From Azolla caroliniana (Eukaryota > Plantae > Polypodiophyta), in the NCBI GenBank assembly GCA_043228905.1, contig JBHGNT010000022.1, positions 5,456,001 to 5,520,000 on the forward strand: a stretch of 64,000 nucleotides of DNA, in the 5' to 3' direction. Shown here piece by piece: positions 1-30,561 of this stretch; position 1 is the stretch's first letter; every line of letters begins with the position of its first letter. The position numbers and the translations under genes are program-made. Below the pieces are notes generated by a model. It searched no databases and was not told the origin of the DNA. It was given only the letters and a program-made list of their open reading frames with translations.

Positions 1-1602
1 GCATATGTTAAGTCACTTAATCCGGAGGTAAGACACATCTCCGGAAAAGACAACGCTGTAGCGGATATGCTATCAAGGGTGCGGTTCGGAGATGACATAA
101 CCAAATCCGATAATGAAGAAGTTTCCGAAGACTACTTTGCTTCGGAGCACATATGTTGGGTGGAAGTAATCCAAGAATTCCGGGAAGAAGAATACGAGGG
201 AGAAAGCTTGTTAATTGGGAAAATGCTACGAGAAATCAAGGAATCATTTGACAATAAAGATCCGAAGTAAGAAACGGCAAGTCCGAAAGTTCTTCTTGAA
301 AATGGATTTTTATGGAGGGAGTCGAAAAGACCGGGTGGCATACCACTTCGAGTAGTCGGGACAAAAGAGCAACGAAACCAGGTAATGTCCGAATTTCACG
401 AATCTGATTGGGCTGGACATCGGGGAACATGGGCAACATTTGGGAAGATCAAGCAAAGATATTGGTGGAAGAATATGTATAAAGATGTCGCGGAGTTCAC
501 GGAAAGCTGCGAGAAGTGTCAAATCTACTCCAGAGTTCAACACCGAGATGAGTTACATCCGACATTCTCACCGACAATCAACTTCAAATGGATGGTTGAC
601 ATTGTAGCCATGCCAACCGGGATCAGACAAAAGAAGTACTTGGTGTTAGCTCGGGAAGATCTCACAAACCAAGTAGAAGGTCGGGCGCTACGGAGGAAAA
701 CATGTTCTACGGTATGCCAATTCCTTTTGGAAGAAGTGTTTTGTAGGTACGGGTGCGTAGGACAAGTGATTGCGGATCGGGGAGAACTCGACTCTGATAA
801 AGCTAAGGAATTCTTCACTAAACATGGAGTTCGGTTAACACTGACAACGGCATACAATCCAGAAGCCAATGGGAAGATCGAACGAGGACATAGTCCGATT
901 GTCAAAGCACTTGCGAAGGCATGCAATGGAAGGGTCAAGGATTGGCCATAGATGCTTCCGTATGCACTATGGGGGGATCGGACGACACATAGCTCCGTAA
1001 CCGGTTACATGCCGGCAGAACTTATGACCGGACAAGCACCGGTAATGCCGACGGAAACCGCAATCGCAACATGGACAATGCTACCATGGAAGGAAGAGAT
1101 GAGCCGGGAAGAACTACTAGCGGTTCGGATATGACAACTGGAGGGAAGACCGGAAGACATAGCGGAAGCAATACGCCGACAACAAGAAGCGCGATTCCGG
1201 AATAAAAGCCGGTTCGACACAAAGCACCGACTACGACCGCAGAAGATTGAAGAAGGAGATTGGGTGATTGTCTACGACAGTAGTTTGGATCATCAACATA
1301 CAACGATGCGGAAGTTCGCGAAAAGGTGGTTCGAGCCATATGAGGTTCGGAAAGTTTTCGATAACGGAACTTACCGACTATGCAAGTTGGATGGAACGAC
1401 GCTACGAGTGCCTATAGCCAGGAAACGGGTGAAGATTTTCAAGAAGCGGACTGAAGAAGAAGCCTATGTGATCCTAGACAAGACCGACAAGAAGGAGCAA
1501 TCAGACGAAGATCGCGGTGATGCGGAAAGCGAGGAAAGTGGATTACAACTCATAGTCGACTTAAGGGGAGAATTGGAGGAAGCTTCGGATGAAGGTGAAT
1601 AG
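1..1602 (+). pseudogene. Ty3/gypsy pol 3' part (end of RNase H + integrase), degenerate, runs in from the window edge
   Basis: RNase H tail ISGKDNAVADMLSR; integrase H..AGH...C..C zinc motif; core motifs DIVAM / ADRGE / ANGKIERGH; GPY/F-like RWFEPYEV. In-frame stops at 949-951 and 1132-1134. Confidence 0.9.
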
Positions 1603-4293: not shown

Positions 4294-4633
4294 TATCAGA
4301 ACCAAGAGAAAAGATAGAGTGACAGAAGAAAGATGTAAAGAGATCACAAGAAGAGAGGAATGAAATGATAAGAGAAGAATGAATGTATTAAATGAGAATG
4401 AAAACAAGATAGGTGATGAGAGCTTAAGACTGGTGTTGATTCGAATTGGTTTGAAAGAATTGTATGCCTATATTTATAGGTTCCTATAGAATAGCCTAGA
4501 GATTTCTATAATGTTCTGGAATGTTCTAGACCTAGAATATTCTAAGATGTTCTAGGATATTCTAGAATGTTTTAGAATGTTCCAGAGTAGTAAATAATCA
4601 GTTTATTATAAGAAGTACCTTTTATCATCTCAT
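4294..4633 (-). repeat. 5' LTR (part) of the chromovirus-like element, interrupted by the 4634-18607 insertion; a short remainder follows 18612
   Basis: Lies upstream of gag; minus-strand TATAAATA at 4471-4478; ttctaga tandem motifs at 4495-4585; the ctcat TSD shows the interruption. Confidence 0.65.
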
Positions 4634-5072
4634 TGTTGTCCACCGGAATAGTAACCGACGGACAAGAGCTTAGGAATAAGAAATAATATAAGATCATAAC
4701 GCATGTAACGGTTCACTCAGGAAGCGTGAACGGCTAAATAGACCCTGCGTATATAAAGGGCATAAAACCTCTGATAGAGGGAGCGTGTAATTTTGGGAAT
4801 GTAAGAAACGTCTCATAGTAGAATTCTATCTTCTCTGATTCTCTATGTATAGCTACGGCTAATCCACTGTGTATATCTTGAAGACCTAAGCGTGTAAGAA
4901 CATAAGTGTAACCTTTGCTAAGGATTCAGTTGTAGTCATATCCCTTATATGCTGATAGGTTACAAGGAACATTCCCCTACACATTACGCTTAGACGCCTA
5001 TTCATTGTTCCACACCCACCTGGAGGTCTAGGTCGAAGGACTGACCGCGGACTGTGTTCCTAATCGGCAACA
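4634..5072 (+). repeat. 5' LTR of the gypsy element
   Basis: Direct repeat of 18169-18607; TG...CA termini; TATATAAA at ~4749-4757. Confidence 0.95.
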
Positions 5073-5076: not shown

Positions 5077-5090
5077 CGGCACGCTTGGTG
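5077..5090 (+). promoter_or_regulatory. Degenerate primer binding site, tRNA-Arg type
   Basis: cggcacgcttggtg, 4 nt after the LTR; 11/14 match to TGGCACGCCCGGTG, the recalled complement of the plant tRNA-Arg(UCU) 3' end; all mismatches are transitions. Confidence 0.65.
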
Positions 5091-5108: not shown

Positions 5109-6234
5109 ATGAACAACGACGAATGGATGTTTAGCCGCAGACGTCCCAGAGAACCAACACGACAAGACCAACCAATAACAAGGTCCGTCACACGCCAGGC
5201 AGAAGAACACGCACGACACAAGCCGTGCCTCAGCAACCTCAGTACTACCTATCGTGAGTACAAAGGTGATTCTTCGCTCTCCAAATACCTTGACGAGACG
5301 CGGGGACTACACTCATCACAGCCACCCGGTGGTCTTTCCCGACCCGCCGTAGCCCCCACCATGGCCTTTGCCTACCCCCACTTTAACGGCGAAACCGACG
5401 CCGCAACGCATATTCGCATGTTCCTGAATGTCTGGAATGCGAACCACATGGCGCAGAGCCTTTCGGAGGCGGTAGCACACCAGTCGAAAATGACGGAGTT
5501 CAGGTTAAAATTAGATGGGCGAGCGGCGTTTTGGCATTCACAGATGGATTTACCAGCAATAACAATCTTCGATCAGCTACAGTCCGCGTTCTTGCGATTC
5601 TTCCATCGGAGGGTTCCACAACGTGAAATCCTCAGACAGCTTTATACGATTAAGCAACTGCCGATCGAGACGATAGCGGACTTCAGCTTACGTTTCCAAA
5701 ATCTACGACGGAAACTGGAACGGAGCCCTGCGGAAGACGAGGCTCGGGAAACATTTATGGCAACTTTACGCCGGCCCATCCGGGCAACGCTCAACAACAA
5801 TAGCGTGAAAGGGGAAATGACGGATATGGTAATTGAACGAGCCTTACAGCTCGAGTTGGATGACGAGGAGGAAAGGTTTTCTATATCCTCCTTACGACAA
5901 GCGTTACCTCAGGATGAGGAACGCCAGTTTCGTCAAGCAATCCAGTGCATGATTTGCTTGAAATCGGGGCATTCCGCAGTGGACTGCAATATGCGAATCC
6001 ACTACCCAATCTACCACTCGAAGGCTCACACAATCAACCAATGCGAATACAATATGTTAAACAGAGCCACTCCTGCAGTCCGCAACATGGACACATAACG
6101 TCAACCACACCGGACTGAACAAAGGAGGCAAGAAGACCGACCCCGGTATAAGGATCACAACCCACGGGAGGACCAGTACCACCGAAATCGCCGAAATCAC
6201 AACGATTCCGAGGAGGACGAACTAGAGGACAAGG
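5109..6234 (+). pseudogene. Gypsy gag, 5' part (continues after 11562)
   Basis: Capsid-like region (YPHFNGETDAATHIRMF...AAFWHSQ...ETIADFSLRF); CCHC CMICLKSGHSAVDC and a degenerate second knuckle; a third knuckle CFICQQPGHYATQC at ~11848-11892. Confidence 0.85.
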
Positions 6235-9200
6235 TGTTGGGATTACGGTCCCTTCGGATGGGATGGTCGGATATCGGAGATGAATGCCGACAAGCCCGGT
6301 TTCGGTTTCGGATCCGGATGACGAAGACCCCGGTTTCGGTACCGGATGACGAATGTACCCGGAGAGCGATCCGGATGCAGGGACATATCCGTGAATATGT
6401 TCGCTATGGGCCCCTGAGGCTACAGTTGTAAATAGCCCAAAGTCATATAAGTATAAATATGACTTAGGGCAAACAGTTTTACTGTTGCTTCTCATTTTTT
6501 TGTTTTTCCACTTTAGAGGAGTGAAGAGAGAGCAACCGTGAGAGAGATAGAGTGCGAGAGAGGAAGAGGTAGACGCCTCTGTGTATTTCCGCCGCCTGTG
6601 GCGAGGACAGCGAGCTCAAGGTCGTCGCCTTGCAGCTCGCCATTGTATACTTCTCTGTATAGTGTTGGTTTGGAGTCTTGTACTCCCGTGGTTTTTCCCG
6701 TCTAGGGTTTTCCACGTTAATCCCTGTGTACTCGCGTTTTTTGTTTCTCCGTGTGGTTCCTATTTTCTGCTGCATTGATTCGCGATTACTCGGTTGTGGC
6801 CGAGTGGTGAAGGTGAATCGAAGCGTCGATTCCCAACAAACTGGTATCAGAGCGAACTGCTGCAGAAAATGGAAGGCGGCGGCAGCGGGCAGCCGGGGAT
6901 GATGGTGCTAAATGCACAGAATTACGCCGACTGGAAGATCAAGATGGAGGATCTTCTGATTGTTCGGGACCTGTACGAACCGATTGACAGGTCGGAAATA
7001 CCGAAGGGGGTACTTGAGTCGGAATGGAGGCTTCTGAACCGGAAAGCCGTTGCAACCATTCGGCAATACGTCGACGTGAGCGTTCTACAACATGTGGCGA
7101 ACGACACCAACGCATATGAGATGTGGCGGAAGCTGTCGGGCCTCTATGAGAGGAAGAATGCGTTGAACCGAACCTCCCTGATGAGGAAGATCGTGAATCT
7201 CAAGTACCGGGATGGCGAGAGTATGGTGGAACACGTAAGCACGTTCATGGGATTCGTGAATCAGCTTGCGGCGATCAAGTTCCCGTTGGAGGATGCAATG
7301 CAAGCCATCATCCTGATGTGTACATTGCCGGAAAGCTGGGAGAACTTGGTGGTAACTCTCAGCACCTCCTGCGCCGAAGATAACTTGTCCTTACAAACGG
7401 TAAAGACAAGTATTTTGAATGAAGAAGCGCGTCGGAGAGATAAGGAACCGGCCTCCGACCCGAAGATGTTGTTTACCGAATCCGATCGGGGAAGACAATG
7501 GAACCGGAGTCCGCAAAGACGGGAGAAGTCGGGGACCCGGTCGCAGTCAAGAGGAAGGCCCACATGCTTCCACTGTGGGAAGCCCGGGCACTTCCGAAAG
7601 AATTGTCGGCATTACCGAAAGGACAATGGAACCGACAACACCGATTCGAAGAAGTCACCGGAGAGAAACGGTGCATACCGGGGAGCCACGGACCGGAGAG
7701 GTCCGGATCGGCGAGGGCAGGACCGGAAAGGAACGACGGCACTCGCGGCAAGTGAAGAGGAGATCATGCTCATCACCGAAGAAGGTGAACTAAACATTGC
7801 CGGCGATGAGACGACCTGGGTGGTCGATTCCGGAGCATCGTTCCACCTGACCCCGGAGAGAAGATACTTCTCATCCTACACAGCCGGCGAGCATGGCTGT
7901 GTTCGGATGGGAAACGAAGGTACGTGCCGGATTGCCGGCATAGGAGACGTGTGGTTGACAACCCCGACGGGATGCAAAATGCTGCTGAAGAATGTCCGAC
8001 ACGTTCCGGAGGTCCGACTGAACCTGATTTCGGCCGGGAGGCTAGATGATGAAGGCTACACGGGTAGCATCCGGAACGGTGTCATGAAGTTCAGCAAGGG
8101 GAGCTTGATAGTGGCTCGGGCCCGGAAGGTCAACACATTGTACCTGATGAATGCTTGGTTATGTCCGGAAGAGCTGAATGTGGCAGCCGACACTGCCGGT
8201 GAGCTGTGGCACAAAAGACTGTGCCACATGAGTGAGAAGGGGATGAAGAGGCTTGCAAAAGACAACCTTATTCCAGTGAAGCACGTGCACCTGGAGAAGT
8301 GCACCGATTGCCTGGCCGGTAAGCAGAACCGAGCCTCCTTCCACTCAAGGCCACCGAAGAGACGTAGTGTACCATTGGAGTTGGTACACACTGATGTGTG
8401 TCAAGTAGAAACGAAGTCACATGGCGGAGCCCAGTACTTCGTGACATTCATTGATGACCACAGCCGGAAGCTGTGGACGGCACCGATGAAGACAAAGGAC
8501 CAAGTGTTGTGCGTCTTCAAAGAACTCCACGCGAGAGTGGAAAGGGAATCCGGCAAGAAGCTGAAAGCGATACGAGCGGATAACGGAGGGGAATACCGGG
8601 GGCAGTTCCAGGAGTACTGTCGCTCGAAGGGAATCCGACTCGAGTTTACTATGCCGAAGACGCCGGAACTGAACGGGCTGGCCGAGAGGATGAACCGGAC
8701 CATAATGGAGAGGGTCCGGAGTATGCTGGCGCATGCGAAATTACCCAAGGGGTTTTGGGCTGAGGCAATGTCGACGGCGACATACGTGATAAACAGATCA
8801 CCCTCAGTACCTTTGGACGGAGACACGCCGCAGAGAGTGTGGACCGGTAGGGAAGTATCCTACCGGCATCTGAAGGTGTTCGGGTGTCTCGCATACGTGC
8901 ATGTGGCAAAGGACCGGAGAGGAAAGCTAGATCCAAAGACCCGGCCATGCATATTCCTCGGATACGGCGACGACGAGTTCGGCTACCGAGTATGGGACCC
9001 GGTTGACAAGAAGATATTCAGGAGTCGAGACATCATCTTCATGGAGGACAAGACACTCGCCGACTGGGAGTCGGAGAAGAAGATGAAGAGCTCCAAGTCA
9101 ACCGGTGAGGATAAACTCTACGAGGAGCAGTCCCGACCGGCAAGGGACCGGTTAGCACTCGAGGATCCGGCCGAAGACGGTGAAGAAACCGAACCGGTCG

Positions 9201-11557
9201 AAGAAGACGAAAATGATACCGGAACCGGCCCCGATCCCGAAATGGATTCGGATGAAGAAGAATCGGAAGAACCGGTTACCGAAGCTCCGGAACGGAGATA
9301 TCCTCTAAGAGAGAGAAGGGCCCCCCGGAGATTTCCGGAACCAGAGCACGTGCTGCTAACCGACGAGGGGGAGCCGGAGAGCTTTGAAGAAGCAAAACAT
9401 GACACCCAGAGCCGCAGGTGGTTGAGTGCCATGCAGGACGAGATGGATTCCCTGCATGAGAACCACACATATGAACTTGTGGAGTTGCCGAAAGGAAAGC
9501 GGGCACTTCGAAACAAGTGGGTGTTCAAGCTGAAACCGGGAGATGCCGGAAACCCCCCGAGATACAAAGCCAGGATCGTGGTGAAGGGGTTTCAGCAGAA
9601 GAAGGGCGTCGACTTCGACGAGATATTTGCCCCGGTAGTGAAGATGACCTCCATCCGGACGGTGCTGAGCATAGCGGCAAGCATGGACCTCGAGGTAGAA
9701 CAGATGGACGTGAAGACGGCATTCCTTCACGGTGACCTCGATGAAGAGATCTACATGCAGCAACCGGAAGGATTCGAGAAGAAAGGGAAGGAGCACCTGG
9801 TATGCCGGTTGAAGAAGAGCCTTTACGGACTGAAGCAGGCTCCCCGGCAATGGTACCGGAAGTTCGACTCCTTCATGACCGACGAAGGGTACCTCAAAAC
9901 ACAGTCCGACCACTGCGTGTTTGTGAAGAAGTTCGAAGGAGGAGACTCTCTAATACTCCTCCTGTACGTGGACGACATGTTGATCGTCGGACGGGATCAG
10001 GTCAAGATACGGATGCTGAAGAAGGCTCTTCACCGAACCTTCTCAATGAAGGACCTGGGTCCGGCGAGGCAAATACTAGGGATGCACATCATCCGGGACC
10101 GGAAGAAGAAGCAGTTGTGGCTGTCACAGGAGAAGTACGTGACGAAGGTGCTTCACCGGTTCAACATGTCGGAAGCAAGACCGGTCGGATCGACCCTCCC
10201 GACAAACTGCAAGCTGTCCAGCAAGCAAAGTCCCAAGACAAAGGCTGAAAAGGAGGATATGATGAAAGTACCGTATGCCTCAGCTGTCGGGAGCTTGATG
10301 TACGCCATGGTGTGTACGAGACCGGACATCGGATATGCAGTCGGAGTGGTGAGCCGGTACATGAGCAATCCCGGCAAAGAGCATTGGAACGCGGCCAAGT
10401 GGATACTCCGATACCTGAAGGGCACGGCAAACGTGTGCCTCCGATTCGGCTCCGGAAAGCCCGAACTCGACGGCTTTACCGATTCGGATATGTCGGCTGA
10501 TGCAGATACCAGCCGGTCCACATCAGGGTATGTGATGACGTATGCAGGGGGAGCTGTTTCCTGGCAGTCGAGGCTGCAGAAGACGGTTGCGTTGTCAACC
10601 ACGGAGGCGGAGTACATGGCGGCTGTTGAAGCCGGCAAGGAAATAATATGGATGAAGGACTTCATTAGAGAGCTCGGTATCCAACAGGAGGAGTACCGAC
10701 TCTACTGCGACAGTCAGAGTGCAATCCACCTTGCGAAGAACGCGGCCTATCACTCCCGGACGAAGCACATCCAGCGAAGATATCACTGGATCCGGGAAAG
10801 GATAGAAGACAAGGAGTTCGTGCTGACAAAGATCCACACGGACGAGAACGGGTCGGATATGCTGACCAAGGTGCTCACACCCGACAAGCTGGAAGCATGC
10901 CGGAAGAGGATCGGATTGGAGAGACATCCCATGCCGAAGTGAAGGGGGAGTTTGTTGGGATTACGGTCCCTTCGGATGGGATGGTCGGATATCGGAGTTG
11001 AATGCCGACAAGCCCGGTTTCGGTTTCGGATCCGGATGACGAAGACCCCGGTTTCGGTACCGGATGACGAATGTACCCGGAGAGCGATCCGGATGCAGGG
11101 ACATATCCGTGAATATGTTCGCTATGGGCCCCTGAGGCTACAGTTGTAAATAGCCCAAAGTCATATAAGTATAAATATGACTTAGGGCAAACAGTTTTAC
11201 TGTTGCTTCTCATTTTTTTTGTTTTTCCACTTTAGAGGAGTGAAGAGAGAGCAGCCGTGAGAGAGATAGAGCGCGAGAGAGGAAGAGGTAGACGCCTCTG
11301 TGTATTTCCGCCGCCTGTGGCGAGGACAGCGAGCTCAAGGTCGTCGCCTTGCAGCTCGCCATTGTATACTTCTCTGTATAGTGTTGGTTTGGAGTCTTGT
11401 ACTCCCGTGGTTTTTCCCGTCTAGGGTTTTCCACGTTAATCCCTGTGTACTCGCGTTTTTTGTTTCTCCGTGTGGTTCCTATTTTCTGCTGCATTGATTC
11501 GCGATTACTCGGTTGTGGCCGAGTGGTGAAGGTGAATCGAAGCGTCGATTCCCAACA
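6235..11557 (+). mobile_element. Intact Ty1/copia LTR retrotransposon, family A copy 1, inserted in the gypsy gag
   Basis: LTRs 6235-6838 and 10953-11557 differ by ~3 substitutions and 1 poly-T indel; TSD caagg (6230-6234 / 11558-11562); tRNA-iMet PBS tggtatcagagc at 6842-6853; PPT gaagggggag at 10941-10950. Confidence 0.98.
6869..10942 (+). CDS. Copia gag-pol polyprotein (Gag, CCHC, protease, GAG-pre-integrase, integrase, RT, RNase H), 1357 aa, uninterrupted
   Basis: CFHCGKPGHFRKNC; WVVDSGAS; LWHKRLCH; HTDVC / RADNGGEY / NGLAERMN; QMDVKTAFLHG; LLLYVDDML; DSDMS...AEYMA...CDSQSAI. ATG lies 15 nt after the PBS. Confidence 0.97.
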   Translation: MEGGGSGQPGMMVLNAQNYADWKIKMEDLLIVRDLYEPIDRSEIPKGVLESEWRLLNRKAVATIRQYVDVSVLQHVANDTNAYEMWRKLSGLYERKNALNRTSLMRKIVNLKYRDGESMVEHVSTFMGFVNQLAAIKFPLEDAMQAIILMCTLPESWENLVVTLSTSCAEDNLSLQTVKTSILNEEARRRDKEPASDPKMLFTESDRGRQWNRSPQRREKSGTRSQSRGRPTCFHCGKPGHFRKNCRHYRKDNGTDNTDSKKSPERNGAYRGATDRRGPDRRGQDRKGTTALAASEEEIMLITEEGELNIAGDETTWVVDSGASFHLTPERRYFSSYTAGEHGCVRMGNEGTCRIAGIGDVWLTTPTGCKMLLKNVRHVPEVRLNLISAGRLDDEGYTGSIRNGVMKFSKGSLIVARARKVNTLYLMNAWLCPEELNVAADTAGELWHKRLCHMSEKGMKRLAKDNLIPVKHVHLEKCTDCLAGKQNRASFHSRPPKRRSVPLELVHTDVCQVETKSHGGAQYFVTFIDDHSRKLWTAPMKTKDQVLCVFKELHARVERESGKKLKAIRADNGGEYRGQFQEYCRSKGIRLEFTMPKTPELNGLAERMNRTIMERVRSMLAHAKLPKGFWAEAMSTATYVINRSPSVPLDGDTPQRVWTGREVSYRHLKVFGCLAYVHVAKDRRGKLDPKTRPCIFLGYGDDEFGYRVWDPVDKKIFRSRDIIFMEDKTLADWESEKKMKSSKSTGEDKLYEEQSRPARDRLALEDPAEDGEETEPVEEDENDTGTGPDPEMDSDEEESEEPVTEAPERRYPLRERRAPRRFPEPEHVLLTDEGEPESFEEAKHDTQSRRWLSAMQDEMDSLHENHTYELVELPKGKRALRNKWVFKLKPGDAGNPPRYKARIVVKGFQQKKGVDFDEIFAPVVKMTSIRTVLSIAASMDLEVEQMDVKTAFLHGDLDEEIYMQQPEGFEKKGKEHLVCRLKKSLYGLKQAPRQWYRKFDSFMTDEGYLKTQSDHCVFVKKFEGGDSLILLLYVDDMLIVGRDQVKIRMLKKALHRTFSMKDLGPARQILGMHIIRDRKKKQLWLSQEKYVTKVLHRFNMSEARPVGSTLPTNCKLSSKQSPKTKAEKEDMMKVPYASAVGSLMYAMVCTRPDIGYAVGVVSRYMSNPGKEHWNAAKWILRYLKGTANVCLRFGSGKPELDGFTDSDMSADADTSRSTSGYVMTYAGGAVSWQSRLQKTVALSTTEAEYMAAVEAGKEIIWMKDFIRELGIQQEEYRLYCDSQSAIHLAKNAAYHSRTKHIQRRYHWIRERIEDKEFVLTKIHTDENGSDMLTKVLTPDKLEACRKRIGLERHPMPK

Positions 11558-11562
11558 CAAGG

Positions 11563-14500
11563 ATTATCGTGGACATCCGAGTTACGCCAAAGGGGGTCAG
11601 CGCTACGAGAATCAACAGCTGACAAAGAAACGGGGCGGCTTCAATGGTTATCATGGTAAGCCACGGCAATATCAACATCACCGGCGTTACGACGAAAGCT
11701 CGGGGGATCAGCTGCACCAAGAACAACGATGGGACCAACAGCAGCCACCGCGTACATTCCGATAAACGAGGCCGGACCGCGAGGAGCAAGTAGCACCTAC
11801 GGAGCGGCACACACCACCAGGAGCCGAGAAGGGTGAATCAAGCATCCATTGTTTTATTTGTCAGCAACCCGGACATTATGCCACGCAATGCCCAACACGC
11901 AAGGGAAAGGGGCCCACTGTCAATACGATTACGGCGGAAGTGCAGCAAGTCACGACACGCCAACAAACAAAAACAGTTGATTGGGTTGCGCAAGACGGGG
12001 TACGCCGACATGCCCAAGCGTGGCTGGAAAAAGCAAACGTAACAAATACAGAATGTATGCGGAAGGAGTCCGCGAACACAATGGAGCAAGCAGAGGACGA
12101 AAGACCGGTCCCAGACCCCATTTGACAGGCGTTAGCGGGCTGTGAGATAACGTTAATCATGGAGAAACTGCTGCAGCTAGTCCCACACTTCCGCCAGACC
12201 ATGGAAGAACGGGTGACAGGCATAGCCGGGGTGAATATCGCTACAAACCTTACTGACGTTAGCAATGGACCACCGGTAGTGGATCAGCACAACCTGACTA
12301 TTACATTAATATTACACGGATAGGAAATTCCTGGATGTGTAATCGACGGCGGCTCAGGCGTCAATGTAATTAGCGCAAAAACTTGCGAGCAGTTAGGCAT
12401 TTCAGAATGGGAGACTTGCCCATTCTGGCTCTGAATGGCAGATACCCGCTCAGTACGACCGTTAGGGTTAATTCGCAAAATAGGCATTATCGTGGGCGGA
12501 CACCGATTCAACATCTCGGCGGTCGTCCTCGCATTGGACGCCCTAGGGGTGTACCCAGTGCTTCTGGGCACACCATGGCTTCGGGCAACAAATATCAAGC
12601 AGAGCTGGCAACACAAGTGTATTAGTTTCCGACACGGATGCACGAAGGTTCGCGTACCTATGGAAGGAAGCACGCCACAACCGAAGGGTATAACACCATT
12701 ATACGCAGAAGATATAAATATGTTGGTTGGGGTGGAGGATGCAAAATTAGAGGCATACCTCGACGAGCACCCTCGGATTATTCCGTTGTTTGAAATAGAC
12801 GTCATCGCAACCGCGGCAGAATATGCCACGACCACTGTTCTCCACGATGAGCCTTACGAACCAAACCCAGAGTCCATATTGGAACTCAGCAGAGCACGGG
12901 CGGCATTCGAAAGGGAAATGGAGATTTCACGACGAGTCACCACTTCCGCCCTCGAAGAAGTAAATATGGGTACGGAATCGGAGCCTCGTTTCCTCTCCAT
13001 CGCAAAGGAATTAAGGCCGAACCAGCAAAAAACGATGATCGCGCGCTACTCACAGAATATAAGGATGTGTTCGCTTGGGTTCATGAGGACATGAAGGGGT
13101 TAGATCCCAAGTTCTATCAGCATAAGATCAATTTAGCAACCGACGCGAAACCCGTCCAACAGCGCCGCTACCGCATGAACCCGAACTACGCGACCCACGT
13201 GAAAGAAGAACTTGACAAACTCCTGAAGGCAGGGTTCATACGACTAGTTAAACAAGCAACATGGTTAAGCCCGATAGTGGTTGTTCCAAAGAAAAACGGC
13301 AAAATACGGGTATGTGTAGATTATGGAAAATTAAACACCGTCACCATTACGGACGCATTTCCCTTACACTTCACCGATAGCGTACTGGACGCCGTCGCAG
13401 GCCATGAGATGTACAGTTTTTTAGATGGCTTCAGTGGCTATAACCAGGTACGCATGCATCCCGAGGACCAAGAAAAGACGGCATTTTTCACGGACTGGGG
13501 AGTATATGTGGCAATCGTCATGATGTTCGGGCTAAAGACGGCGCTGGCAACATTTCAACAGACAATTACGGAGATCTTTGGGGAATACATTCCGGCGTTC
13601 ATGCAAGTTTTTTTAGATGACTTTGCGGTATATGGGAGAACAATAGACCATTTTTCGCACTTACAACTGTGCCTGGAACGTTGCCGCACCACACGCTTAA
13701 GCCTGAATCCCGCGAAATGTGCTTTCGGTGTGACCAATGGGACTCTCTTGGGCCATATAGTCAGCAAGGAGGGAATAGCGGTTGACCCGAACAAAATCTC
13801 CACGATTACGCAAGCCAACACTCTGACAAACGCCAAATCACTCAACCGGTTTTTGGGACAAATACGGTGGCATAGTCGGATGATACGGTATTTGGCGGAC
13901 TTCGCCGTTACATGTTGTCGTACATCGGACTCCTTTCCAATGGACTACAACGGAGGATAAGGCCTACGAGGCACTTAAGATAATGCTCACACAGGCTCCC
14001 GTCATACAACCACCAGTTTGGGCAAAGCCATTCCACGTGTTCGTCGACACCTCGGACATAGCAATAGGAAGTGCACTAATGCAGCTCACCGAACCAAGTC
14101 GGTACCGGCCAGTATACTACGCTAGTCGCAAATTATCAACAACAGAGCATAAGTACTCCACAACGGAGCGGGAGGCACTAGGGATGATCTATAGCATCAA
14201 TAAATTCCGGCACTATTTATTAGGAAGGAAATTCACGTTCCACATGGATCATTCGGCGCTACTGTATTCGGTGGAGAAACAAGCCTTGACAGGGAAATTG
14301 GCACGGTGGAAGCTGTTGCTCCAGGAATTCGATTTCGTAATCCAACACCGACTAGGGACGCAACACGCAGTGGCGGATTTTTTGAGCAGACTCGAGGATG
14401 GAGAAACAGTACAGAAAGATGACGACGATTTTCCGGACGCCGATATCCTGCGGGTAGCGACACTAGCAGAAAGAACGGAATCGACCTTTCCAGAACGGTG

Positions 14501-15808
14501 GCTTATGGAAATGACGTACTTTTTGACTACGGGACTACCTCCACCACAATTACGCACGGACGAGAAGAAAAGACTAGCCATCCGAAGCCGTCACTTCTGC
14601 CTCGTCGAAGGCGTTTATATCACAAAGGAAGTGACGGCATTTGGCGACGTGGGGTACGGCAAGATGAGAAGCAAGCAGTTTTACGGGAGGCACACTGCGG
14701 CACGGCAGGCGGCCATTACGCAGGCGATGTTACAGCTCGGAAAGTATGGCAGGTGGGCCTATGGTGGCCAACAACGTAGAAGGACGCATCCACGTATTGT
14801 AGAAAGTGTGATTTGTGTCAACGGATGGGACAACCCACAGAGGGCGCAAGGATGCCACACCAGCCCGTATTACCGCTAGACTCCTTCCAAAAGTGGGGAT
14901 TGGATTTTCTGGGGCCCTTCACACCAGCGGCAGCCCGTACGAGCAATAAATACATATTGGTAGCCACGGATTATTGCACAAAATGGGTAGAAGCAAAGGC
15001 ACTACGTGAAAATACGGCGGCCATCACAGCCAGATTCCTTTACGGGCACATCTGGTGCCGGTTTGGCTGTCCGATTGAGCTTATCAGTGACCAAGGGAGC
15101 CACTTTCTCAATACGGTTGTTCGAGAATTAACACATCATTACGTCATAGTCCATAAGAAGAGTACTCCATATTATCCGCAGGCGAATGGATTAGCAGAAT
15201 CCACCAACAAGACGTTGCAGACCATTTTGAAGAAAATCGTCAATGAAAATAGAACGGACTGGGATACCAAACTACAGAGTGCGTTATGGGCGTACAGAAC
15301 CAGCTACAAAACAAGCATACAGTCAACACTGTTTCGACTAGCGTTTGGGCTGGAGGCTGTGATGTCGGTCGAATTTGAGGTACCTAGTTTGCGAATTTAG
15401 GTACGGAACAGACTATCAGAAGCCAAGTCGGAGGAAGTACGGCTCCACCAACTCCTCGAACTAGGAGAAAAACGCGTCCACAGCATAGCTATGTTGGAAC
15501 AGGAACAACGACGGCGTAAAGCGTTTGTTGATTGACATCGGAACGCAAGGGAAAAGGAGTTCTCCGTGGGTCGAGCAGTGGTGGTTTTCCAAACTCGCAT
15601 GGGCCATATGCCGGGGAAGTTACGATTCCGCTGAACCGGCCCATACTGGATAATTGGAGCGGAACAAGGCACGTTCCAACTAGGTACGCTGGCCGGGGAA
15701 GTAGTCCGGCAAAAGGTGAATGGGTTTCGGTTCAAACCTTACCTGGGCCCTACGCCACCTAACCCATTCATCGCCGAACAGGACAGAGCCGGAGAACCCG
15801 CACCGTAA
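11563..15808 (+). pseudogene. Gypsy gag 3' end + pol (protease, RT, RNase H, integrase) with several stops and frameshifts
   Basis: Protease VIDGGSGVNVI (~12340); RT SFLDGFSGYNQV / FLDDFAVY; RNase H FVDTSDIAIG / EREALGM; integrase KWGLDFLGP / ISDQGSHF / ANGLAESTN; GPY motif near 15637. Confidence 0.95.
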
Positions 15809-15965
15809 ATGAGCGGCCCCACTTGTACCATAATGTATAAATAGGTTGTAGATAACCATTACGAAAAAAGAAAAAAAAGAAAGAAAAAAAACGGGAGAAC
15901 ATAACGACTATTAAAACAACTAAAGACATGCACAAACTCCTAGTTCAAGAACACGCGGCACCACG

Positions 15966-17905
15966 ATGGCTCACCGCCCAATGAACCCTAAGCCACAAAA
16001 AGAAGGAAACAGAAGATTTTCTACACAAAACAGAAACTCATCTTCTAACTATCAACGCTTCCATCGCTCCTCCCCCTCACCTTCTCCTCCATCCTATCAC
16101 ACAGCTACAACCCACTGCAACCACCAGTCTCCTTCCCACGAACCTCCTCTAGCGATGACGATCTTCATCTCTACTGCCTTATGCCGATGGCTCATGGAGA
16201 AATGCTTGGATGGGTACATTCGGGTCGCAGAAACACCCCCACACTCGGATGCCATGGACATCGCCAGGACACTTAACATCGACACGATCACCAACTCCTC
16301 CATCCGGAAGAAGTTGGACCTGTCATCGCTAGGCGAAAGGCATTTTGACATCCCTCCTACAGACACGCTACAGCGATATTTCGGGCCATATTCCTCCTCC
16401 GCCAAGGCCTATAGAATGAAGCAGATTCCGGATCCCTTCTTCCGTGAAGTTGCCAAGTTCCTGCTAGAAGTCGAGTGCGTACATGTCAACGCATATGGGA
16501 TGCCTAAGCAGAAGGCAGGCACCATTATCGATACCTTTGAGTGGGGATGGAGATACCCCCATTAAACACGGCCCTAGTCGAAGTCCATTGGGAACTGGCA
16601 AAGGTCAGGACGGGCGCCAAGGAAATGGCCATAAAAAATAAGAATGTCTGGAAGAAGGTGAAATTGACCCAAGTTGAACTACAAAAAGCTAATGAACGCA
16701 TCGCAGAGTTGGAAGCTCACACGGCTACGGCGCAACACGCAACTCCGCCACCAAACCAAGCCATCGACGCTTTAAAGGAAGAAATTGAGGCTCAGACCGC
16801 CATCGCCTCAAAAGCGAAAAGGGTCGTGCAACTAGCGGAATCAGAAATTAACCGCCTTCGAGCGGAACTACGCCAATCCTCAGACAAAGAAAAGGAGAGA
16901 CGGGCTAACGGCCGGAAGGCAGTAAAAACCCTTGAAGAGAAACTCACTACGGAGGTAGCTCAGCACATCCGGACAAAAGACGACAACGCCCAATTATGGG
17001 AGGACGCGAAGAAATCGGAGGCGGCAATCGCGGGACTCTGGGCCTGATTAGAAAAAAAGAAGGTATGGTTCGACGAGCAGTTGGTGGTCGAACAAGACAG
17101 AAGGCATCAGCTCGAAATCCGCCTAAACAATGAAATGGGGAAATTAGAAGAACAACGTGCAAAGGAATCCCAGTTGTGGACGGGCCTGAAGGCCACGTAC
17201 GAAGAAGCGGCGGCGGTTAATCAGCAAGAAATCGCAAATCTCCAGAAGTCGATGGAAGATGCACGCAACCGTTGCCAAGCCATCACAGATAACGTGTGTA
17301 TCCTTCTCCAAACAAATCGGGAGAGGTTCACAACGCAATTGAAAATGGCGTTGGACAAAGGATGGATGGCGTGGGCAACCCAAGCAGCGGAATTGCACGC
17401 GTATCGTGCAGACTGGGAGAACCGGCGAAAAGACGACCGAGGTTTCTATAAACTAAATGAGGAAAGCATTGCGGGCATACGAGAGGACCTAGCACAAGAC
17501 TATCGTGCGCTAGCGGACCAACACTCCGAAGAACTCGCACAGCTCTTAGATGATTTTGGTGAAAGCCAGGAGGAGCTATTTCACCATATCACACAAGCCG
17601 GCAACACGCACACAAACGAGGAATCCAACGCGACGCCAATTCCGGGCACGGCCGAAGAAGAGGAACCTCAGGCCCGATCACCAGAAATGACAACGATGGA
17701 GAACAGAGCGGACCGACGAGCAGAGTCCCCCACAGGACCAGACAGCGAAACCACTGCACAAGAGGAGGTTCATCTGCACGAGCCCATGCTATCATCGGGC
17801 CACACGGAGGACGGTGCGGGCCAGGCGGACTCTCCGCCCCACTCCCCGGAACGTACAAAAACGGCCGACACCACGGACGACGTAACAATAGAGGCAGAGT
17901 CGTAG
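15966..17905 (+). pseudogene. Extra ORF 3' of integrase, ~600 aa, coiled-coil rich with acidic tail, function unknown
   Basis: Three consecutive ORF pieces (199, 168, 274 aa). The last two are in one frame, separated by a single TGA at 17045-17047; frameshift near 16540-16565. Confidence 0.7.
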
Positions 17906-18168
17906 CCGATTGCAAGCACGACAACGGCAGAGCCCAACCCACTAGCTCAAGAAGAGCCCATCGTACCCGGACTGCCCACACATGGCGATTGAGACTCCGG
18001 GAGAAACTAGCCCGACCAAATAGGGGAGCCACACCACGATGCACCTACGGGCCCTACGTCACCTCCGAACGCGGACACCGCAGCAGAGCCAAACATCCGG
18101 GCCATTTTGGAAGAGGATTAACGGGATGGGTCCGACGTGCCAGGGCACTGTCCCACAGGCGTGCCAGG

Positions 18169-18607
18169 TGTTGTCCGCCGGAATAGTAACCGACGGACAA
18201 GAGCGTAGGAATAAGAAATAATATAAGATCATAACGCATGTAACGGTTCACACAGGAAGCATGAACGGCAAAATTGACCCTACGTATATAAAGGGCAGAA
18301 AACCTCTGATAGAGGGAGCGTGTAATTTTGTGAATGTAAGAAACGTCTCATAATAGAATTCTATCTTCTCTGATTCTCTGTGTATAGCTACGGCTAATCC
18401 ACTGTGTATATCTTGAAGACCTAAGCGTGTAAGAACATAAGTGTAACCTTTGCTAAGGATTCGGTTGTAGCCGTCTCCCTTATACGCTGATAGGTTACAA
18501 GGAACATTCCCCTATGCATTACGCTTAGACGCCTATTCGTTGTTCCACAACCACCTGGAGGTCTAGGTCGAAGGACTGACCGCGGACCGTGTTCCTAATC
18601 GGCAACA
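18169..18607 (+). repeat. 3' LTR of the gypsy element
   Basis: Direct repeat of 4634-5072, followed by TSD ctcat. Confidence 0.95.
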
Positions 18608-18621
18608 CTCATATTATCATA

Positions 18622-25049: not shown

Positions 25050-28000
25050 TGAGATGAGAGAGTTGTGTTTCTGTGCTTCTGTTTTCTGTTTGTCTTTGTA
25101 AAGAATAGCGTGCAGAAGCTTGTAGACAAACCGGCTCAGCTAGATTACAACAATAAAACAGAGAAAGAACGTTTAATGGAAGCTTAAGAACAGATAATAC
25201 ATAGGAGAGACATAGAGAGCAGATACCATCTGAACATCGATCTGATTCTTCGTTCCGGATCCGGTTAAGCTTGTCCGCTAAACACTGCCCATCAAGCTCC
25301 ATTTGAGGTTGGATCGTAGTGTTTGTGTCTGCCAGTCCTCTTCTCTGGCTCCACTTGGTGTCTTCCCGCCTGGCTCGGGCTCCACGTCCGGTCCGGTTCT
25401 GCTTCCCGCGACACATCCGGTTCCGCGCACCTCGACCTTCTCAATCGGCTTGTCTGCTCAGAAGGCCCATCTCAGCTCCTTTGCAATTACGACTCTGACA
25501 CGTCTCCACCCGTGGGTTCTGTCGTGTCAGTGTCGACTTCTCCGAATCAGGTGCCTCCGATTCATTCCAACTCTTGTTCGAATTGGTTGTCTCCAATTCG
25601 TCTTCAATCATCAAGCCCTTTACCACATTGAACCACATCCGGGTCTTGGCCTTCTGATCGGCTCTGTCCGTCTTGACTCTACCGTCGTCACTGCTTGTTC
25701 TGACTTTATCAGATGTGTCGACTTCTTTAGTCGACCCGGCTTCCTTTTTCTTCTTCTTGTCTCCCCCTGCTTTGGTTGTTTCCTTCTTTTCTGCTGCTTG
25801 TGTTTTCCCGGTTTCCGTTCCAATTTCCTCGTTTATCCCCCTCAAATGTGACATGTCTAGATGCTAAAGACCAAGCATTTCCAAAAAATGCTGCAACTTG
25901 TCGGTTCCAATGGCCTTGGTGAAGATGTCGGCAACATACCGATCCATTCGGACAGACCGGAGTTCTACTTCACCGTGGAGGACCTGCTCGCGCACAAAGT
26001 GATAATGCACTTGTATGTACTTTGTCCGAGCATGGAACACAGGGTTCTTGGCAAGCTAGATGCTACTCATGTTGTCGCAGTAGATCGAGATCAGAGTCGG
26101 GACTACGATCCAGAGGTCTTGCAACAACCACCGAAGCTAGATGGCTTCACTAGTGGAAACCGTAGCGCGCCCCAATACTCAGCCTCAATGCTCGATAGAG
26201 CCATAGTTGGCTACTTTTTGCTATTCCATGCAACAGCTGCGCTACCTAGAGAAAACATGAACCCAAAAACAAACCGTCGATCCGACGCATCTCTGGCCCA
26301 GTTGGCATCGGTATATTCGACTAGCTTCTTGGTTATACCATCTCGGTATAACAGGCCCCAGTCCTTCATGCCGCTCACATACCTCAGTATTCGGTGCACG
26401 CATTGAAGGTGTTTCACGGTCGGCTTCTGCATAAACTGACTGATCACACCAACCGGATAGGTAATGTCGGCTCAAGTGATTGTCAGATAAATAAGGCTTC
26501 CAACAATTTGTCGGAACCATTTCTCGTCGTACGCCAATCTATAGTCAGGATGAAGCTTTAGGTTTCGGTCTAGGGGTGTGGTGATTGACCGACAATCCGT
26601 CATGCCGAACTTGTGAAGCATATTCAATACATAATGTCGTTGTGAGAGCAATATGCCGTCGGGGGTATGGATCACTCCGATTCCGAGGAAGTAATGAAGG
26701 TCCCCAAGATCCTTCATGTCAAATGATGCCGCAAGTTGGGATTTGACGCTTGTGTCCAGGTCGGCACCGGCGATGACTAAATCATCAACATAAAGTAAAA
26801 TACTAATCGGCCCATTCTAACCTTGCCAGATGAAGAGAGAAGAATCTAATTTCGACGGAGCAAACCCCATCTGACACAGTCTCTGCGTGATCTTCGCATT
26901 CCAGGCGCGCGGGGTTTGCTTGAGTCCGTAGAGGGACTTCTTCAATCGGCATACAATGGATGTGTTAAATTCGAACTGAAAACTAAGGGGCTATATACAC
27001 ATGTTCCCCAAGATCACCTTGTAGGAATGCGTTTTTTACATCCATCTAATGTAAATGCCATCCCTTCGCCGCTGCCACCACAAGCAGGACATGGACGGTT
27101 GTCATCTTTGCGCCCGGCACGAATGTCTTATCATAATCGATGCCGTGCTGTCGCGGATAGCCTTTTGCCACTAACCGGGCCTTGTACCGGTTGATGGAGC
27201 CGTTGATGTTATATTTGACCTTGTATACCCAACGGCAACCAATCGGCTTCACTCTTTCCAGTACGTCCACTAAATCCCATGTCTCATTTTCCGTGAGTGC
27301 GTGCATCGCTTCCTCCATAGCGCCATGCTAATTTGCGTCCATCATCGCTTCTGCGTAGCTCTTTGGCTCACGCAATTCCGCCACCTTTGTCATATACGCA
27401 TAGTGATGTGCCATGTACTTATTATATCTGTACCTTTTGATGGGGTTCTTCTGGAGTGTGGATCGACATAACTTCTCCTTCGCTGATTTCAGGGCCCTCT
27501 TAGCCGGCTCGAACCTCGGCTCTTAACGTCCGTCTTTGTTCTTTCCGGAGTTAGATTAGCTCTGTTCCGGCTCGTCTTTGCGTGTGGCATATTCCGACAT
27601 CTTCTTCTTCCTCTTCTCTTTGCGTGTGAACCATCTCCTCGGTTCCTTGCACGGGGAGAGCACGATCGAGTGTCCACTACTCACCGGCTTCTCATTTGAC
27701 TGGTCATTCCGACTCAGTCGCTCATTCGGCCCACTTAGCCGGAATGTGATAGAACTCTCATCTAGTTTAACGAATCCTTCAAGTTCATCTTCTGCCCGGA
27801 TCATTTCGGGATCACTGGCCTCATCCTCCAGAATCGGGTTGGAGTCTGACATCGGAGCCGGTAGAGAGTACCATGATGCCGACTCATCAAATTCGAAAAC
27901 TCAGCTCACTCGAACTTGTTTTGTTTGGGGATTATAGCACTTATAACCCTTTTGCTCATGTTAGTTGCCGATAAGGGTGCAGTTCTCCGACTTCGGGTCC

Positions 28001-30561
28001 AACTTTCTCCGCTTCTCATTCGTCACATGCACATATGCAATGCTACCAAATATCTTAAGGTCCCTTAAGTTTGGTTTCCGCCTGACATACAACTCATGTG
28101 CTAACACCTTATCCCCGATCTAGTTTTGGATGTAAACCGCTGTCCGGACCGCTTCGGCCCAGTAGAACATAGGCATGCTATTCTCTTCCAACAATGCAAA
28201 TGTCACCTCCACAAATAACAGGTTCTTCCTTCCCGCCACACCGTTTTGTTCCAGTGTGTATTGGAAGCCGAATTCCCTCCGAATACCTTTTTGCTTCAGA
28301 TAACTATTGAATTGGCCGGAAAAATATTCTTTTCCACCATCCGACCGTAGACACTCGATCTTCCTCTCCATTTCCCGTCCCACAAGACTTTGCAGGTTCC
28401 AAAAACAGTTGAAAACTTCGCTTTTCCTTTCGATTAGGTAGATCCATGTGTGCCGGATGGAGTCGTCGATGAAGGAGACGAAATATTGGCTCCTGACAAG
28501 ACTTACGTTCTGTGTTGGTCCCCATACATTTGAATGTATTAGATCGAGCTTGTTATAACTCCAGTTTCTTTCGATGGGGAATTGAAGCTAGTGTTGTTTC
28601 CCGAACTGGTAGGCTTCACAAATTTCGGCCTTCCGGCCACTAAATTTTGGCAATCCGAAAACAACCTGTTTCGATTGTAGGACTTGAAGCCTCTGATAAT
28701 TGACGTGGCCTATTCGCTTGTGCCATAGATCAATATCCGACTTGATCTTTTGACCATCTGTGAACAAAGCGGTGCCTACGTTGTGGGTGTTGAGGATGAA
28801 CATCGTCCCATCCCGGAACCTTTGCGCAGTAATTTGGCCCTCTTCCTGAATGAAGCACTTGAGGTGCGTAAACCGTACTTGCATGCCTTGATCGACGAGC
28901 TGCCCGACTGACACCAAGTTCTTTGCGATTGTCGAAACATGTAAGACGTTCATCAACTTTCCCTTCTATCCGACATGGCTTAAAGGGACTTCTCCGACAT
29001 GCACAATCGGGTGAGGAGTGTCGTCTCTAGTTTCGACAACTCCCGGTTGCTCCGGTTTTTCCAGAAATGAGAACCACTCTTCGTGGTTCATCATGTGGTT
29101 AGATGCTCCAGAGTCAATGTACCATACTTCCTCCGATCCGGAAGTGGTTTTCTTGTGCTTCATCATGAAGCTGGCCCTTGTCCGGTCTTTCCAGTTTCAG
29201 ACCCTTCCGATCCTTAAGCATAGTGCGAGCTTTGGTGGTTCCTTTGTCCAGTCTTGCAAGATCTAGATTTATCCAAATCGGTGCGCTTCTTCCAACACTC
29301 ACTCTCTTTGTGGCCCTTTCGGCCACAATACCAGCATACCGAGTCGGCCTTCGATTACCGGTTTTCGGCGCCGCCTTGACTCCCCCTACTTGTGGAGGGT
29401 CTGGAACTGTTGTCGGCACCATATCCGTGCCTCCAATTCTACTCTTGTCGGCCGTCGCTATTGCGTGCTGAGTCTTCACGTCCTCCATGTGCACGGGGCC
29501 GATCTGCCTCTGTGTACAACATCTGATTGTCCGATTGCGTGGTCCTTGACCCACTCGCATGGTTTTCTTCGACCATGAGCATCGATTGCAGGTCGAAGGA
29601 TGATGGCTTCTCCCGTGTGCAAATTGTCGTTCGTATTGGCCCGTACCTGTCTGCAATACCACCGAGGCAGATCTAAACCATCTTGTCTTCATCCACCGTC
29701 ACGTTGATGGACCTGACCGCGTCGTAGATCTCCTTGATCTTGGTGGTGTAATCGATGACCGACATGTCCCATTGCCTAATATTGTTGAGCTCTTGCCAGA
29801 GCTACAACTTCTGAGTCATGGTACTTGCAGCGAAAATCTTTTGGAGATTTTCCCAGTCCTCCTTCGGTGATTTTGCATCTCTGATGTAGCCAAGCATCTG
29901 GTTGTGCACACAGGATGCGAGGTAGTACAATACCTTCCTCGCTCCTTGCTCCCATACCGGGAAGTCTTTGTGTGCCGAATCCGGCGCTGCTTCATTCGCC
30001 CCTTCCACGTAGCTCCAGTATCCATGCCCCATCAAGTATTGGTGCATTTTATACGACCTTGACGCATAGTTTCTTTGATCGAGCTTTTCTATAGGAAGTG
30101 AGCTCACTATGCTTCTGTCCATTTCTTTTCTCTTCGGTCTGTCCTTTTCAAGAAGTTACGGTTTGTCTGTTTCGAGTAGTTGTCGGGAATAGAGGTTCTC
30201 AACCCTCGTGCTTTGATACCATGTGAAGAATAGCGTGGGGAAGCTTGTAGACAAACCGGCTCAGTCGGATTACAACAATGGAACAGAGAAAGAAGGTTTA
30301 ATCGAAGCTTAAGAATAGAGAATACACAGGAGAGACATAGAGAGAGAGCAGAAAGCATAAACTCAATTCAAAATATTAATGCTCTGTACATACAATGTGC
30401 TAAGTGAGAACTTTTATACATGTCCATGAAAGTATTGATAGAAGTACTGATAAATACTTTAATGCTCATACGAGCGATAAGCACCAACTCCCAAAAATAT
30501 GCCTACGTACTAGGCTAGATCTGTAGTCCTCTAACGGCCTACCTGTTACAATCCAATCCAG

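What the first reader, a model, noticed from the sequence alone, without database searches (positions are those of the whole stretch)
18150..18170. Ty3/gypsy element with no PPT: an inverted tRNA-Arg PBS-like site sits where the plus-strand primer should be
Seen: the 3' LTR (TG at 18169) is preceded by gtcccacaggcgtgcca+gg, not by a purine run. On the minus strand this reads LTR-CA, cc, TGGCACGCCTGTGGGAC, which has the form of a PBS 2 nt from the LTR. The other end carries a related, more decayed site (cggcacgcttggtg, 5077-5090), so the internal region is bracketed by two inward-facing PBS-like inverted repeats. Known: LTR elements normally prime the minus strand from a tRNA at the PBS and the plus strand from a PPT. 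The plant tRNA-Arg(UCU) 3' end as I recall it is GTCCCACCGGGCGTGCCA, one gap and one mismatch from this sequence. Inference: the family may prime both strands with tRNA, use a genome-encoded tRNA-end mimic as primer, or circularise its RNA by pairing the two sites. I do not know of a described case, but I cannot search the literature.
Basis: partly seen in the sequence, partly recalled or inferred. Interest (0 to 1): 0.85.

Follow-up and report, generated by a model that had tools for sequence, protein, structure and literature searches.

The report
tRNA-end site replaces retrotransposon polypurine tract
A very abundant plant jumping-gene family and two distant relatives lack the purine-rich patch that normally starts the second DNA strand and carry at that spot a sequence shaped like the end of a tRNA, so a second host tRNA likely primes that strand, a route we did not find described.

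Summary
Confirmed and widened. The element (LTRs 4634-5072 and 18169-18607, 5-bp TSD) is a Ty3/gypsy copy with no purine tract; a 17-nt tRNA-3'-end-like site (18150-18166) ends 2 nt before the 3' LTR. It is not a copy accident. Contigs of 4 of 4 runs (4 studies, 2 species labels) cover it at very high summed depth, with one listed variant position. Both clade relatives whose 3' junction could be read (L002, RT 76%; L081, RT 65%) carry a like site behind a small hairpin, although their LTRs differ from the window's. Their 5' primer sites are of other tRNA types, which argues against RNA circularisation as the role. The 5' site is an intact PBS in the family; only this copy has lost its first T. 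Best reading: a host tRNA or its 3' fragment anneals to minus-strand DNA and primes the plus strand (inferred, 0.55). Main rival: the element's own tRNA-like RNA is the primer (0.25). The host tRNA could not be fetched and no cDNA ends were seen. Ten literature searches found no precedent. This scan noted the same feature on three other pieces of this genome and similar single fungal copies.

The parts
4629..4633 (.). left target-site duplication CTCAT
4634..5072 (+). 5' LTR, 439 bp, TG...CA, TATA-like box near LTR position 117 on the + strand
   Evidence: 21 differences from the 3' LTR
5077..5090 (+). 5' primer-binding site after a 4-nt spacer; pairs over about 13 nt with a tRNA end of the L019 type; this copy's first base is private, other copies start TGG
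5109..6234 (+). gag, 5' part (Retrotrans_gag); broken by stops and interrupted by the nested copia
6235..11557 (+). nested, younger Ty1/copia element (LTRs 99.3% identical, TSD CAAGG, ordinary PBS and ordinary PPT); internal control
11558..15809 (+). rest of gag, protease-like stretch, RT, RNase H (four acidic catalytic-type residues present), integrase; broken by stops and frameshifts; no extra archaeal-type RNase H seen
16155..18117 (+). extra forward ORF after pol (broken), no Pfam family; 13 unnamed homologues at 57-68%; weak likeness to the 3' ORF of L081
18126..18135 (+). G-rich stretch plus TCCGA, resembling the 5' strand and loop of a tRNA T-arm; predicted to pair with 18150-18156
   Evidence: fold not better than shuffles
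18136..18149 (+). short hairpin-forming insert directly 5' of the tRNA-like site; hairpins of other sequence sit at the same place in L002 and L081
18150..18166 (+). 17-nt tRNA-3'-end-like site ending CCA (an inward-facing PBS on the minus strand), in place of the PPT; one base shorter than an 18-nt tRNA end
18167..18168 (+). 2-nt spacer between CCA and the LTR
18169..18607 (+). 3' LTR
18608..18612 (.). right target-site duplication CTCAT

Best explanation
This lineage of plant Ty3/gypsy elements has no polypurine tract and carries a conserved tRNA-end-like site just before its 3' LTR, and it likely primes its second (plus) DNA strand with a host tRNA, or an 18-nt 3' fragment of one, that would anneal to this site on the newly made minus-strand DNA. 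Steps: (1) a tRNA primes the minus strand at the normal 5' PBS (PBS shown; priming follows from known biology). (2) After strand transfer RT copies the site, and RNase H would clear the RNA and expose a PBS-like stretch of single-stranded DNA; the adjacent hairpin may pause RT or keep the site from pairing with the 5' PBS in the RNA (inferred). (3) A tRNA ending ...GUGCCA would pair over 15-17 nt and be extended through the 2-nt spacer into U3 (geometry shown, event inferred). (4) RNase H would cut the primer off at the RNA-DNA junction as it does a PPT, leaving a 2-nt extension of the kind integrases trim (inferred from known biology).
For: Position and polarity are those of a plus-strand primer: CCA ends 2 nt before TG in the window (TSD-defined) and in L081 (defined by its LTR pair). 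There is no purine run over 4 nt in 3 of 3 clade members, against 9-10 in controls. The site is family-wide in 4 of 4 runs, with one listed variable position (18157, 9-31% of depth) in 18144-18170. It is kept while the LTRs (53% in a global alignment, 439 versus 1655 bp) and the 300 nt upstream (53%) diverge. The 3' site stays of one tRNA type while the 5' PBS is of three different types, which points to a constraint from outside the element. Predicted duplex energies with a stand-in tRNA end are -34.6 (window), -32.8 (L002) and -26.9 (L081) kcal/mol, against a background mean of -10.3 and a minimum of -23.2 in 5130 windows. The site resembles the 3' arm of a real tRNA gene (L111).
Against: No host tRNA sequence was obtained, so the match and the Arg assignment rest on stand-ins (the L019 PBS, a phage tRNA-Glu found with a pattern built for it) and on recall. 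L002 reads CTA instead of CCA, and its LTR may start 2 nt earlier (best terminal repeat 8 of 10 at 456-919), which would make its spacer 0 nt. The window and L002 sites are one base short, which would bulge a tRNA base. L081 differs from the L019-type end by more than 4 edits. Only three families were read, and L002 is one low-coverage, circularly permuted contig. No cDNA intermediate was seen. 92 variant rows were not shown.
Confidence: 0.55

Rival explanations
1. Cis mimic: the genomic RNA itself folds here into a T-arm-like stem with a free 3' strand, survives RNase H, is cut after CCA and serves as an atypical, non-purine plus-strand primer.
For: In all three families the lowest-energy RNA fold pairs an upstream G-rich strand with the first half of the site and leaves the last bases free. 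The window and L002 have T-arm-like letters upstream, interrupted where an 18-nt tRNA end begins. It needs no second tRNA, and it tolerates the 1-nt deletion and the CTA of L002.
Against: None of the three folds beats its shuffles (z 0.52, -0.46, 0.30), and Rfam gave no tRNA hit. A mimic need not keep the sequence of one tRNA type across 35% RT divergence, and it does not follow the element's own 5' primer type. The upstream T-arm-like letters could equally extend pairing with a real tRNA.
Confidence: 0.25
2. The site pairs with the 5' PBS to circularise or regulate the RNA, and the plus strand is primed by some other route.
For: The window's two sites pair at -24.4 and those of L081 at -19.8 kcal/mol, at or beyond the 1% tail of background. 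5'-3' RNA bridging is known in Ty3 and Drosophila gypsy (PMC1635307, passages).
Against: In L002 self-pairing is at background (-9.5 versus a mean of -11.1). The 3' site does not co-vary with the 5' PBS. It leaves the fixed distance to the LTR and the missing PPT unexplained.
Confidence: 0.1
3. The site is a relic of an old inverted LTR-plus-PBS accident, or a packaging or small-RNA target signal; the plus strand starts from random RNA remnants or from the purine-rich ORF end about 50 nt upstream and the end is trimmed.
For: The terminal repeats of the LTR make the two junctions look like one long inverted repeat. A purine-rich coding stretch lies at about 18110-18130 in this and sister subfamilies. 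Earlier notes report such inversions as single-copy accidents in other genomes (unchecked).
Against: A functionless relic would not outlast complete LTR turnover. The 3' site is not a copy of the element's own PBS in any of the three families. The TSD fixes the integrated end exactly at 18169/4634.
Confidence: 0.08
4. Copy-specific rearrangement, assembly artefact or chance.
For: The window copy is dead and mutated; L081 lies in a chimeric MAG contig and its TSD is ambiguous.
Against: Contigs from four studies bridge the junction (table 8), two independent relatives have the site, and the background rate is 2 sites in 1.86 Mb, both at an LTR junction.
Confidence: 0.02

Closest known systems
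Canonical LTR-retroelement priming (tRNA at the PBS, RNase H-resistant PPT), e.g. yeast Ty3 and HIV-1 (PMC5371799, passages)
   Same: LTRs, TSD, domain order RT-RNase H-integrase, tRNA-type 5' PBS, a primer site ending just upstream of U3.
   Different: No purine tract; the site is about half pyrimidine and reads as a tRNA 3' end.
Plant non-chromovirus Ty3/gypsy: Athila, Tat (TatI-III, Ogre, Retand), Phygy, Selgy (PMC6317226, passages and supplement file 3)
   Same: RT 38-48% identical to Athila-like and Tat-like loci; 5-bp TSD; extra ORF; tRNA-type PBS; AT-rich spacer before the PBS as in Athila (bioRxiv 10.64898/2026.03.20.713144, passages).
   Different: No aRH (unlike Tat); PBS not of the Asp/Asn type and no PPT (unlike Athila); 5-bp TSD and an extra ORF (unlike Phygy and Selgy); own branch in the RT tree. 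That survey scored only the 50 bp after the 5' LTR, so it would not have seen this site.
Bipartite or second PBS of Ty3 and Drosophila gypsy (PMC1635307 and PMC5371799, passages)
   Same: A tRNA-related sequence near the 3' end of the genome.
   Different: Those sites are complementary to tRNA in the RNA, bind other tRNA arms, and the elements keep a PPT. Here the site has the same sense as the tRNA, so a tRNA could bind only the minus strand.
Helenus TRIMs (PMC10886601, passages) and tRNA-like structures of plant RNA viruses (PMC4810235, passages)
   Same: tRNA-like sequence inside a mobile or viral genome.
   Different: Helenus carries it inside the LTR, keeps PBS and PPT, and the author excludes a priming role. 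Viral structures are at the RNA's very end and are aminoacylated. A tRNA-like stretch in HIV-1 U3-R that aids strand transfer is recalled, not read.

Membership tests
Ty3/gypsy LTR retrotransposon | gag, then RT, RNase H, integrase in that order | tested here: met
   window ORFs; P0001, L081; protease only a weak hit (E 0.024 in P0001)
Ty3/gypsy LTR retrotransposon | direct LTRs TG...CA with a target-site duplication | tested here: met
Ty3/gypsy LTR retrotransposon | PBS just after the 5' LTR | tested here: met
   TGG start in 99.8-100% of depth in the 3 of 4 runs that laid
Canonical PPT-primed LTR elements | purine tract directly before the 3' LTR | tested here: not met
   longest run 4 or less in 3 of 3 clade members, 9-10 in 3 of 3 controls
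Tat (TatI-III, Ogre, Retand) | extra archaeal-type RNase H domain | tested here: not met
   and the Pfam columns for the closest hits; definition
Athila | PBS for tRNA-Asp/Asn/Ala and a conserved PPT junction | tested here: not met
   loci with the Asp/Asn PBS (L011, L013) fall on another branch
Phygy / Selgy | 4-bp TSD, no extra ORF, PBS for tRNA-Trp or tRNA-Ala | tested here: not met
   5-bp TSD and a 3' ORF
Named REXdb clades | phylogenetic placement with reference RT-RH-INT sequences | not testable with these tools
   no REXdb references held; the tree (quick method, RT only, 131 rows) uses unnamed or database-named rows
Ty3/gypsy bipartite PBS | 3' site complementary to tRNA in the genomic RNA | tested here: not met
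   the site has tRNA sense on the + strand
tRNA-primed plus strand (proposed) | a host tRNA whose 3' end pairs with the site | tested here: inconclusive
   no genome; no tRNA in the window or 40 loci; four supplements gave no sequence; stand-ins pair strongly
tRNA-primed plus strand (proposed) | tRNA found on the 5' end of nascent plus-strand DNA | not testable with these tools
   needs extrachromosomal cDNA or an in vitro assay

The most novel reading that the evidence does not exclude
A whole, successful lineage of plant LTR retrotransposons primes both DNA strands with host tRNAs, often two different ones, and has dropped the polypurine tract. Its two internal ends are then mirror images, so an antisense transcript could in principle be reverse transcribed as well, and 3' tRNA fragments could act on both steps.
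Probability: 0.55. Interest if true: 0.9.

Novelty: new variant of a known kind. Interest (0 to 1): 0.8.

Why it matters
The RNase H-resistant purine tract is treated as the standard second primer of retroviruses and LTR retrotransposons; variation has been described almost only for the first primer (half tRNAs, self-priming, bipartite sites). A high-copy lineage that replaces the tract with a tRNA-end site would show that plus-strand priming can be rewired, and would test what RNase H and integrase need at the U3 end. The 1-nt difference between the genomic site and a full tRNA end gives a built-in marker that can tell a host primer from a self-primer. It also matters for annotation: tools that require a PPT would miss or misorient these elements.

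Tried and rejected
Runs X12 and X13 were laid only on the 5' junction: X12 laid nothing, X13 shares the LTR end and PBS, and neither was tested at the 3' site. Exact-pattern scans for the site found nothing in genome contigs or viral contigs. Protein-guided scans of viral contigs gave no clade member. A search of 401 genomes of one phylum found only the MAG already known; the 3' ORF profile found nothing in 3 MAGs. The pattern search in those 3 MAGs found only L081, and its backwards control also matched once, so the short pattern alone is not rare at genome scale; position is what counts. Host tRNA-Arg: not found in the window, in 40 loci or in 4 more stretches, nor in supplements of PMC5389709, PMC7544208, PMC6874348 and PMC8166872 (9 of 20 files of the last were not searched); one paper was not held. 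Rfam gave no tRNA match. Folding energies of the cassette do not exceed shuffles (one exception, z -2.05 for a 91-nt minus strand driven by an LTR hairpin), so a conserved structure is suggested, not shown. The Atlas gave only leads under 0.9 for the 3' ORF. Rejected: a reversed element (gag-pol and a TATA-like box are on + in all three families); a wrong LTR boundary (TSD); 'decayed 5' PBS' as a family trait.

Full report
Observation. The 3' LTR begins at 18169 and is preceded by GTCCCACAGGCGTGCCA (18150-18166) and GG. The LTRs span 4634-5072 and 18169-18607, differ at 21 of 439 positions, and are flanked by CTCAT on both sides. The site is therefore internal, at the place of the polypurine tract (PPT). 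The 30 nt before the LTR hold no purine run over 4 nt; three controls have runs of 9-10. Between the LTRs lie a broken gag, a nested young copia element (6235-11557) with an ordinary PBS and PPT, RT, RNase H, integrase and an extra forward ORF. The four acidic residues typical of the RNase H active site are present in the window, P0001 and L081 (motif positions recalled). The nearest named RT relatives are mostly from Riccia, Adiantum and Marchantia at about 41-56%, so the host is probably a non-seed plant (inference).

Is it family-wide? No genome is held, so I laid public contigs on both junctions. On 17950-18330, 4 of 4 runs (four studies, two species labels) laid 576-2622 contigs each. Summed depth in X2 is about 195,000-225,000 over 18145-18170, as high as or higher than anywhere upstream. 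Among the 41 rows shown, the only one inside 18144-18170 is A>G at 18157 (9-31% of depth); 92 weaker rows were not shown, so low-level variation in the motif is not excluded. No insertion or deletion at 3% or more was listed there. The loose ends shown before 18169 agree at only 0.38, as expected of mixed insertion flanks, and no purine-tract consensus appears among them (358 loose-end rows not shown). Other subfamilies diverge upstream of about 18124 but share the last 45 nt. On the 5' side, T replaces this copy's C at 5077 in 99.8-100% of depth in the 3 of 4 runs that laid. Summed depth is not a copy number.

Is it lineage-wide? An RT-guided scan gave 79 metagenome loci, 1 viral locus and 18 MAG loci. 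I looked for LTR pairs in the 44 of the first 80 that are at least 4 kb and in 9 of the 18, and scanned all for the motif. In a quick RT tree of 131 rows the window falls in a 21-row group (SH-aLRT 99, no bootstrap). Only two loci of that group include the 3' junction, and both have the site. L002 (RT 76%) is a circularly permuted contig: 3' ORF end, GTCCCACGGGCGTGCTA at 439-455, LTR, then a PBS starting TGGCGACCAC. Its last 43 nt before the LTR are 78% identical to the window's, against 53% for the LTR, 53% for the 300 nt upstream and 48 +/- 4% for random 44-mers. L081 (RT 65%) is a full element with 1.65-kb LTRs, an 18-nt PBS starting TGGCGACTCC, and GCTCCACCAGGTGTGCCA, AG, TG at its 3' junction; its 3' ORF is barely detectable with the window-type profile (E 0.002 at Z = 1000). 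Outside the group, L011, L022, L038, L084, L087 and the chromovirus-like element in L106 show purine tracts, and L063 is unclear. Caveats: L002 reads CTA, is one 5.5-fold contig, and its LTR may start at 456 rather than 458, so its spacer is 0 or 2 nt; the TSD of L081 is ambiguous.

Chance. In 1.86 Mb, only the window and L002 sites lay within 2 edits of the reverse complement of the canonical PBS of L019. L081 is further away: 4 edits from the window motif, a level reached at 23 places in the 18 MAG loci. It is the exact position before TG that makes it count.

Anatomy. The conserved block is longer than the finding. In the window and L002 a G-rich pentamer and a T(C/T)CGA stretch lie upstream, like the T-arm of the tRNA gene in L111, separated from the 17-mer by a 13-14-nt insert that can form a hairpin; L081 has a 7-bp hairpin of other sequence at the same place. 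About 60-66% of family depth has T at 18143, which makes that insert palindromic. These folds are not more stable than shuffles, so the structure is a lead only. L111 was found with a pattern designed for such ends and is a phage tRNA-Glu. It shows that the letters fit a tRNA 3' arm, not which tRNA. The Arg label rests on recall and on Ogre and Retand commonly using tRNA-Arg.

Mechanism. On the + strand the site has tRNA sense, so a tRNA cannot bind it in the genomic RNA but can bind its copy in minus-strand DNA, with the 3' OH pointing into U3. That is the geometry of a plus-strand primer. Stand-in tRNA ends pair with the three sites at -27 to -35 kcal/mol, beyond all 5130 background windows (minimum -23.2; RNA parameters used as a proxy). 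The 5' PBS is of a different type in each family while the 3' site keeps ...GTGC(C/T)A. This argues against circularisation through the two sites (L002 self-pairing is at background) and against an inverted copy of the element's own PBS. It favours a constraint from an invariant host molecule, hence trans priming (0.55) over a cis mimic (0.25). Against trans priming stand the missing base in two families, the CTA in L002, and the lack of any host tRNA or cDNA data. All steps after the sequence anatomy are inferred.

Comparison with the known. Reviews describe the PPT as the plus-strand primer of Ty3 and retroviruses (PMC5371799, passages; PMC3185511, passages, no occurrence of 'tRNA'). The second PBS of gypsy and Ty3 is complementary to tRNA and coexists with a PPT (PMC1635307, passages). 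The plant survey PMC6317226 (passages and supplement file 3) defines the non-chromovirus clades and scored only the 5' side; the element fails a defining feature of each named clade. Athila keeps a conserved PPT junction (bioRxiv 10.64898/2026.03.20.713144, passages). Helenus carries tRNA sequence inside its LTR and keeps a PPT (PMC10886601, passages). Ten searches (seven aimed at precedent or the motif, three at tRNA sequences or non-seed-plant elements; listings seen, several cut to 25-35 rows) showed no description of a tRNA-end site replacing the PPT. The library lacks most subscription journals and Repbase; bioRxiv supplements are closed; the per-element table of PMC6317226 was not seen. 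A prior mention there cannot be excluded.

Earlier notes of this scan. Looked up after my reading was written down (notes): three unreviewed notes on other pieces of this genome reach the same reading, and two describe single fungal copies with a mirrored primer site. They are not independent evidence and were not used for the score.

Verdict. Real, conserved across a lineage, and apparently undescribed. It is a Ty3/gypsy element by its domains, with a likely new way of starting the second strand. Interest 0.8; novelty: new variant of a known kind.

Noticed in passing
window 6235-11557 (+), 30562-35878 (-), 54461-59785 (-): Three copies of one young copia family, 93-96% alike, LTR pairs 98.7-99.7% identical; the first keeps a 1387-aa open frame and sits inside the gypsy gag.
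   Followed up: partly
window 16155-18117: Extra forward ORF with no Pfam family; 13 unnamed homologues, full-length ones about 800 aa; the Atlas gave a weak lead (0.80) to a plant mobile domain cluster.
   Followed up: partly
L081 9323-16654: In this relative the 3' ORF is in one 2444-aa frame with pol, and a further frame runs across the tRNA-like site into the LTR.
   Followed up: no
L081 / G001:C10: A contig filed in a bacterial MAG carries over 20 kb of plant retrotransposon DNA, apparently joined to bacterial-looking DNA; G002 and G003 also hold plant-type gypsy sequence.
   Followed up: partly
window 18126 and 18157: The two A>G variants have similar shares in three of four runs (about 9-10/11-13% and 29/31%), suggesting a subfamily closer to L002 that is more common under the second species label.
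   Followed up: no
window 25097-30507 and 44776-50511: Two older LTR elements on the minus strand, about 71% alike, with ordinary PBS-like sites and, in the second, an ordinary purine tract.
   Followed up: partly
window 271-1056: Integrase of another, distant gypsy element (29% to the element's integrase).
   Followed up: no
window 41988-42714: Degenerate tandem repeat array with units of about 15 and 41 nt.
   Followed up: no
L052 1-1730 and 9216-10945: The same 121-nt repeat occurs four times, in two inverted pairs, around an Athila-like pol.
   Followed up: no
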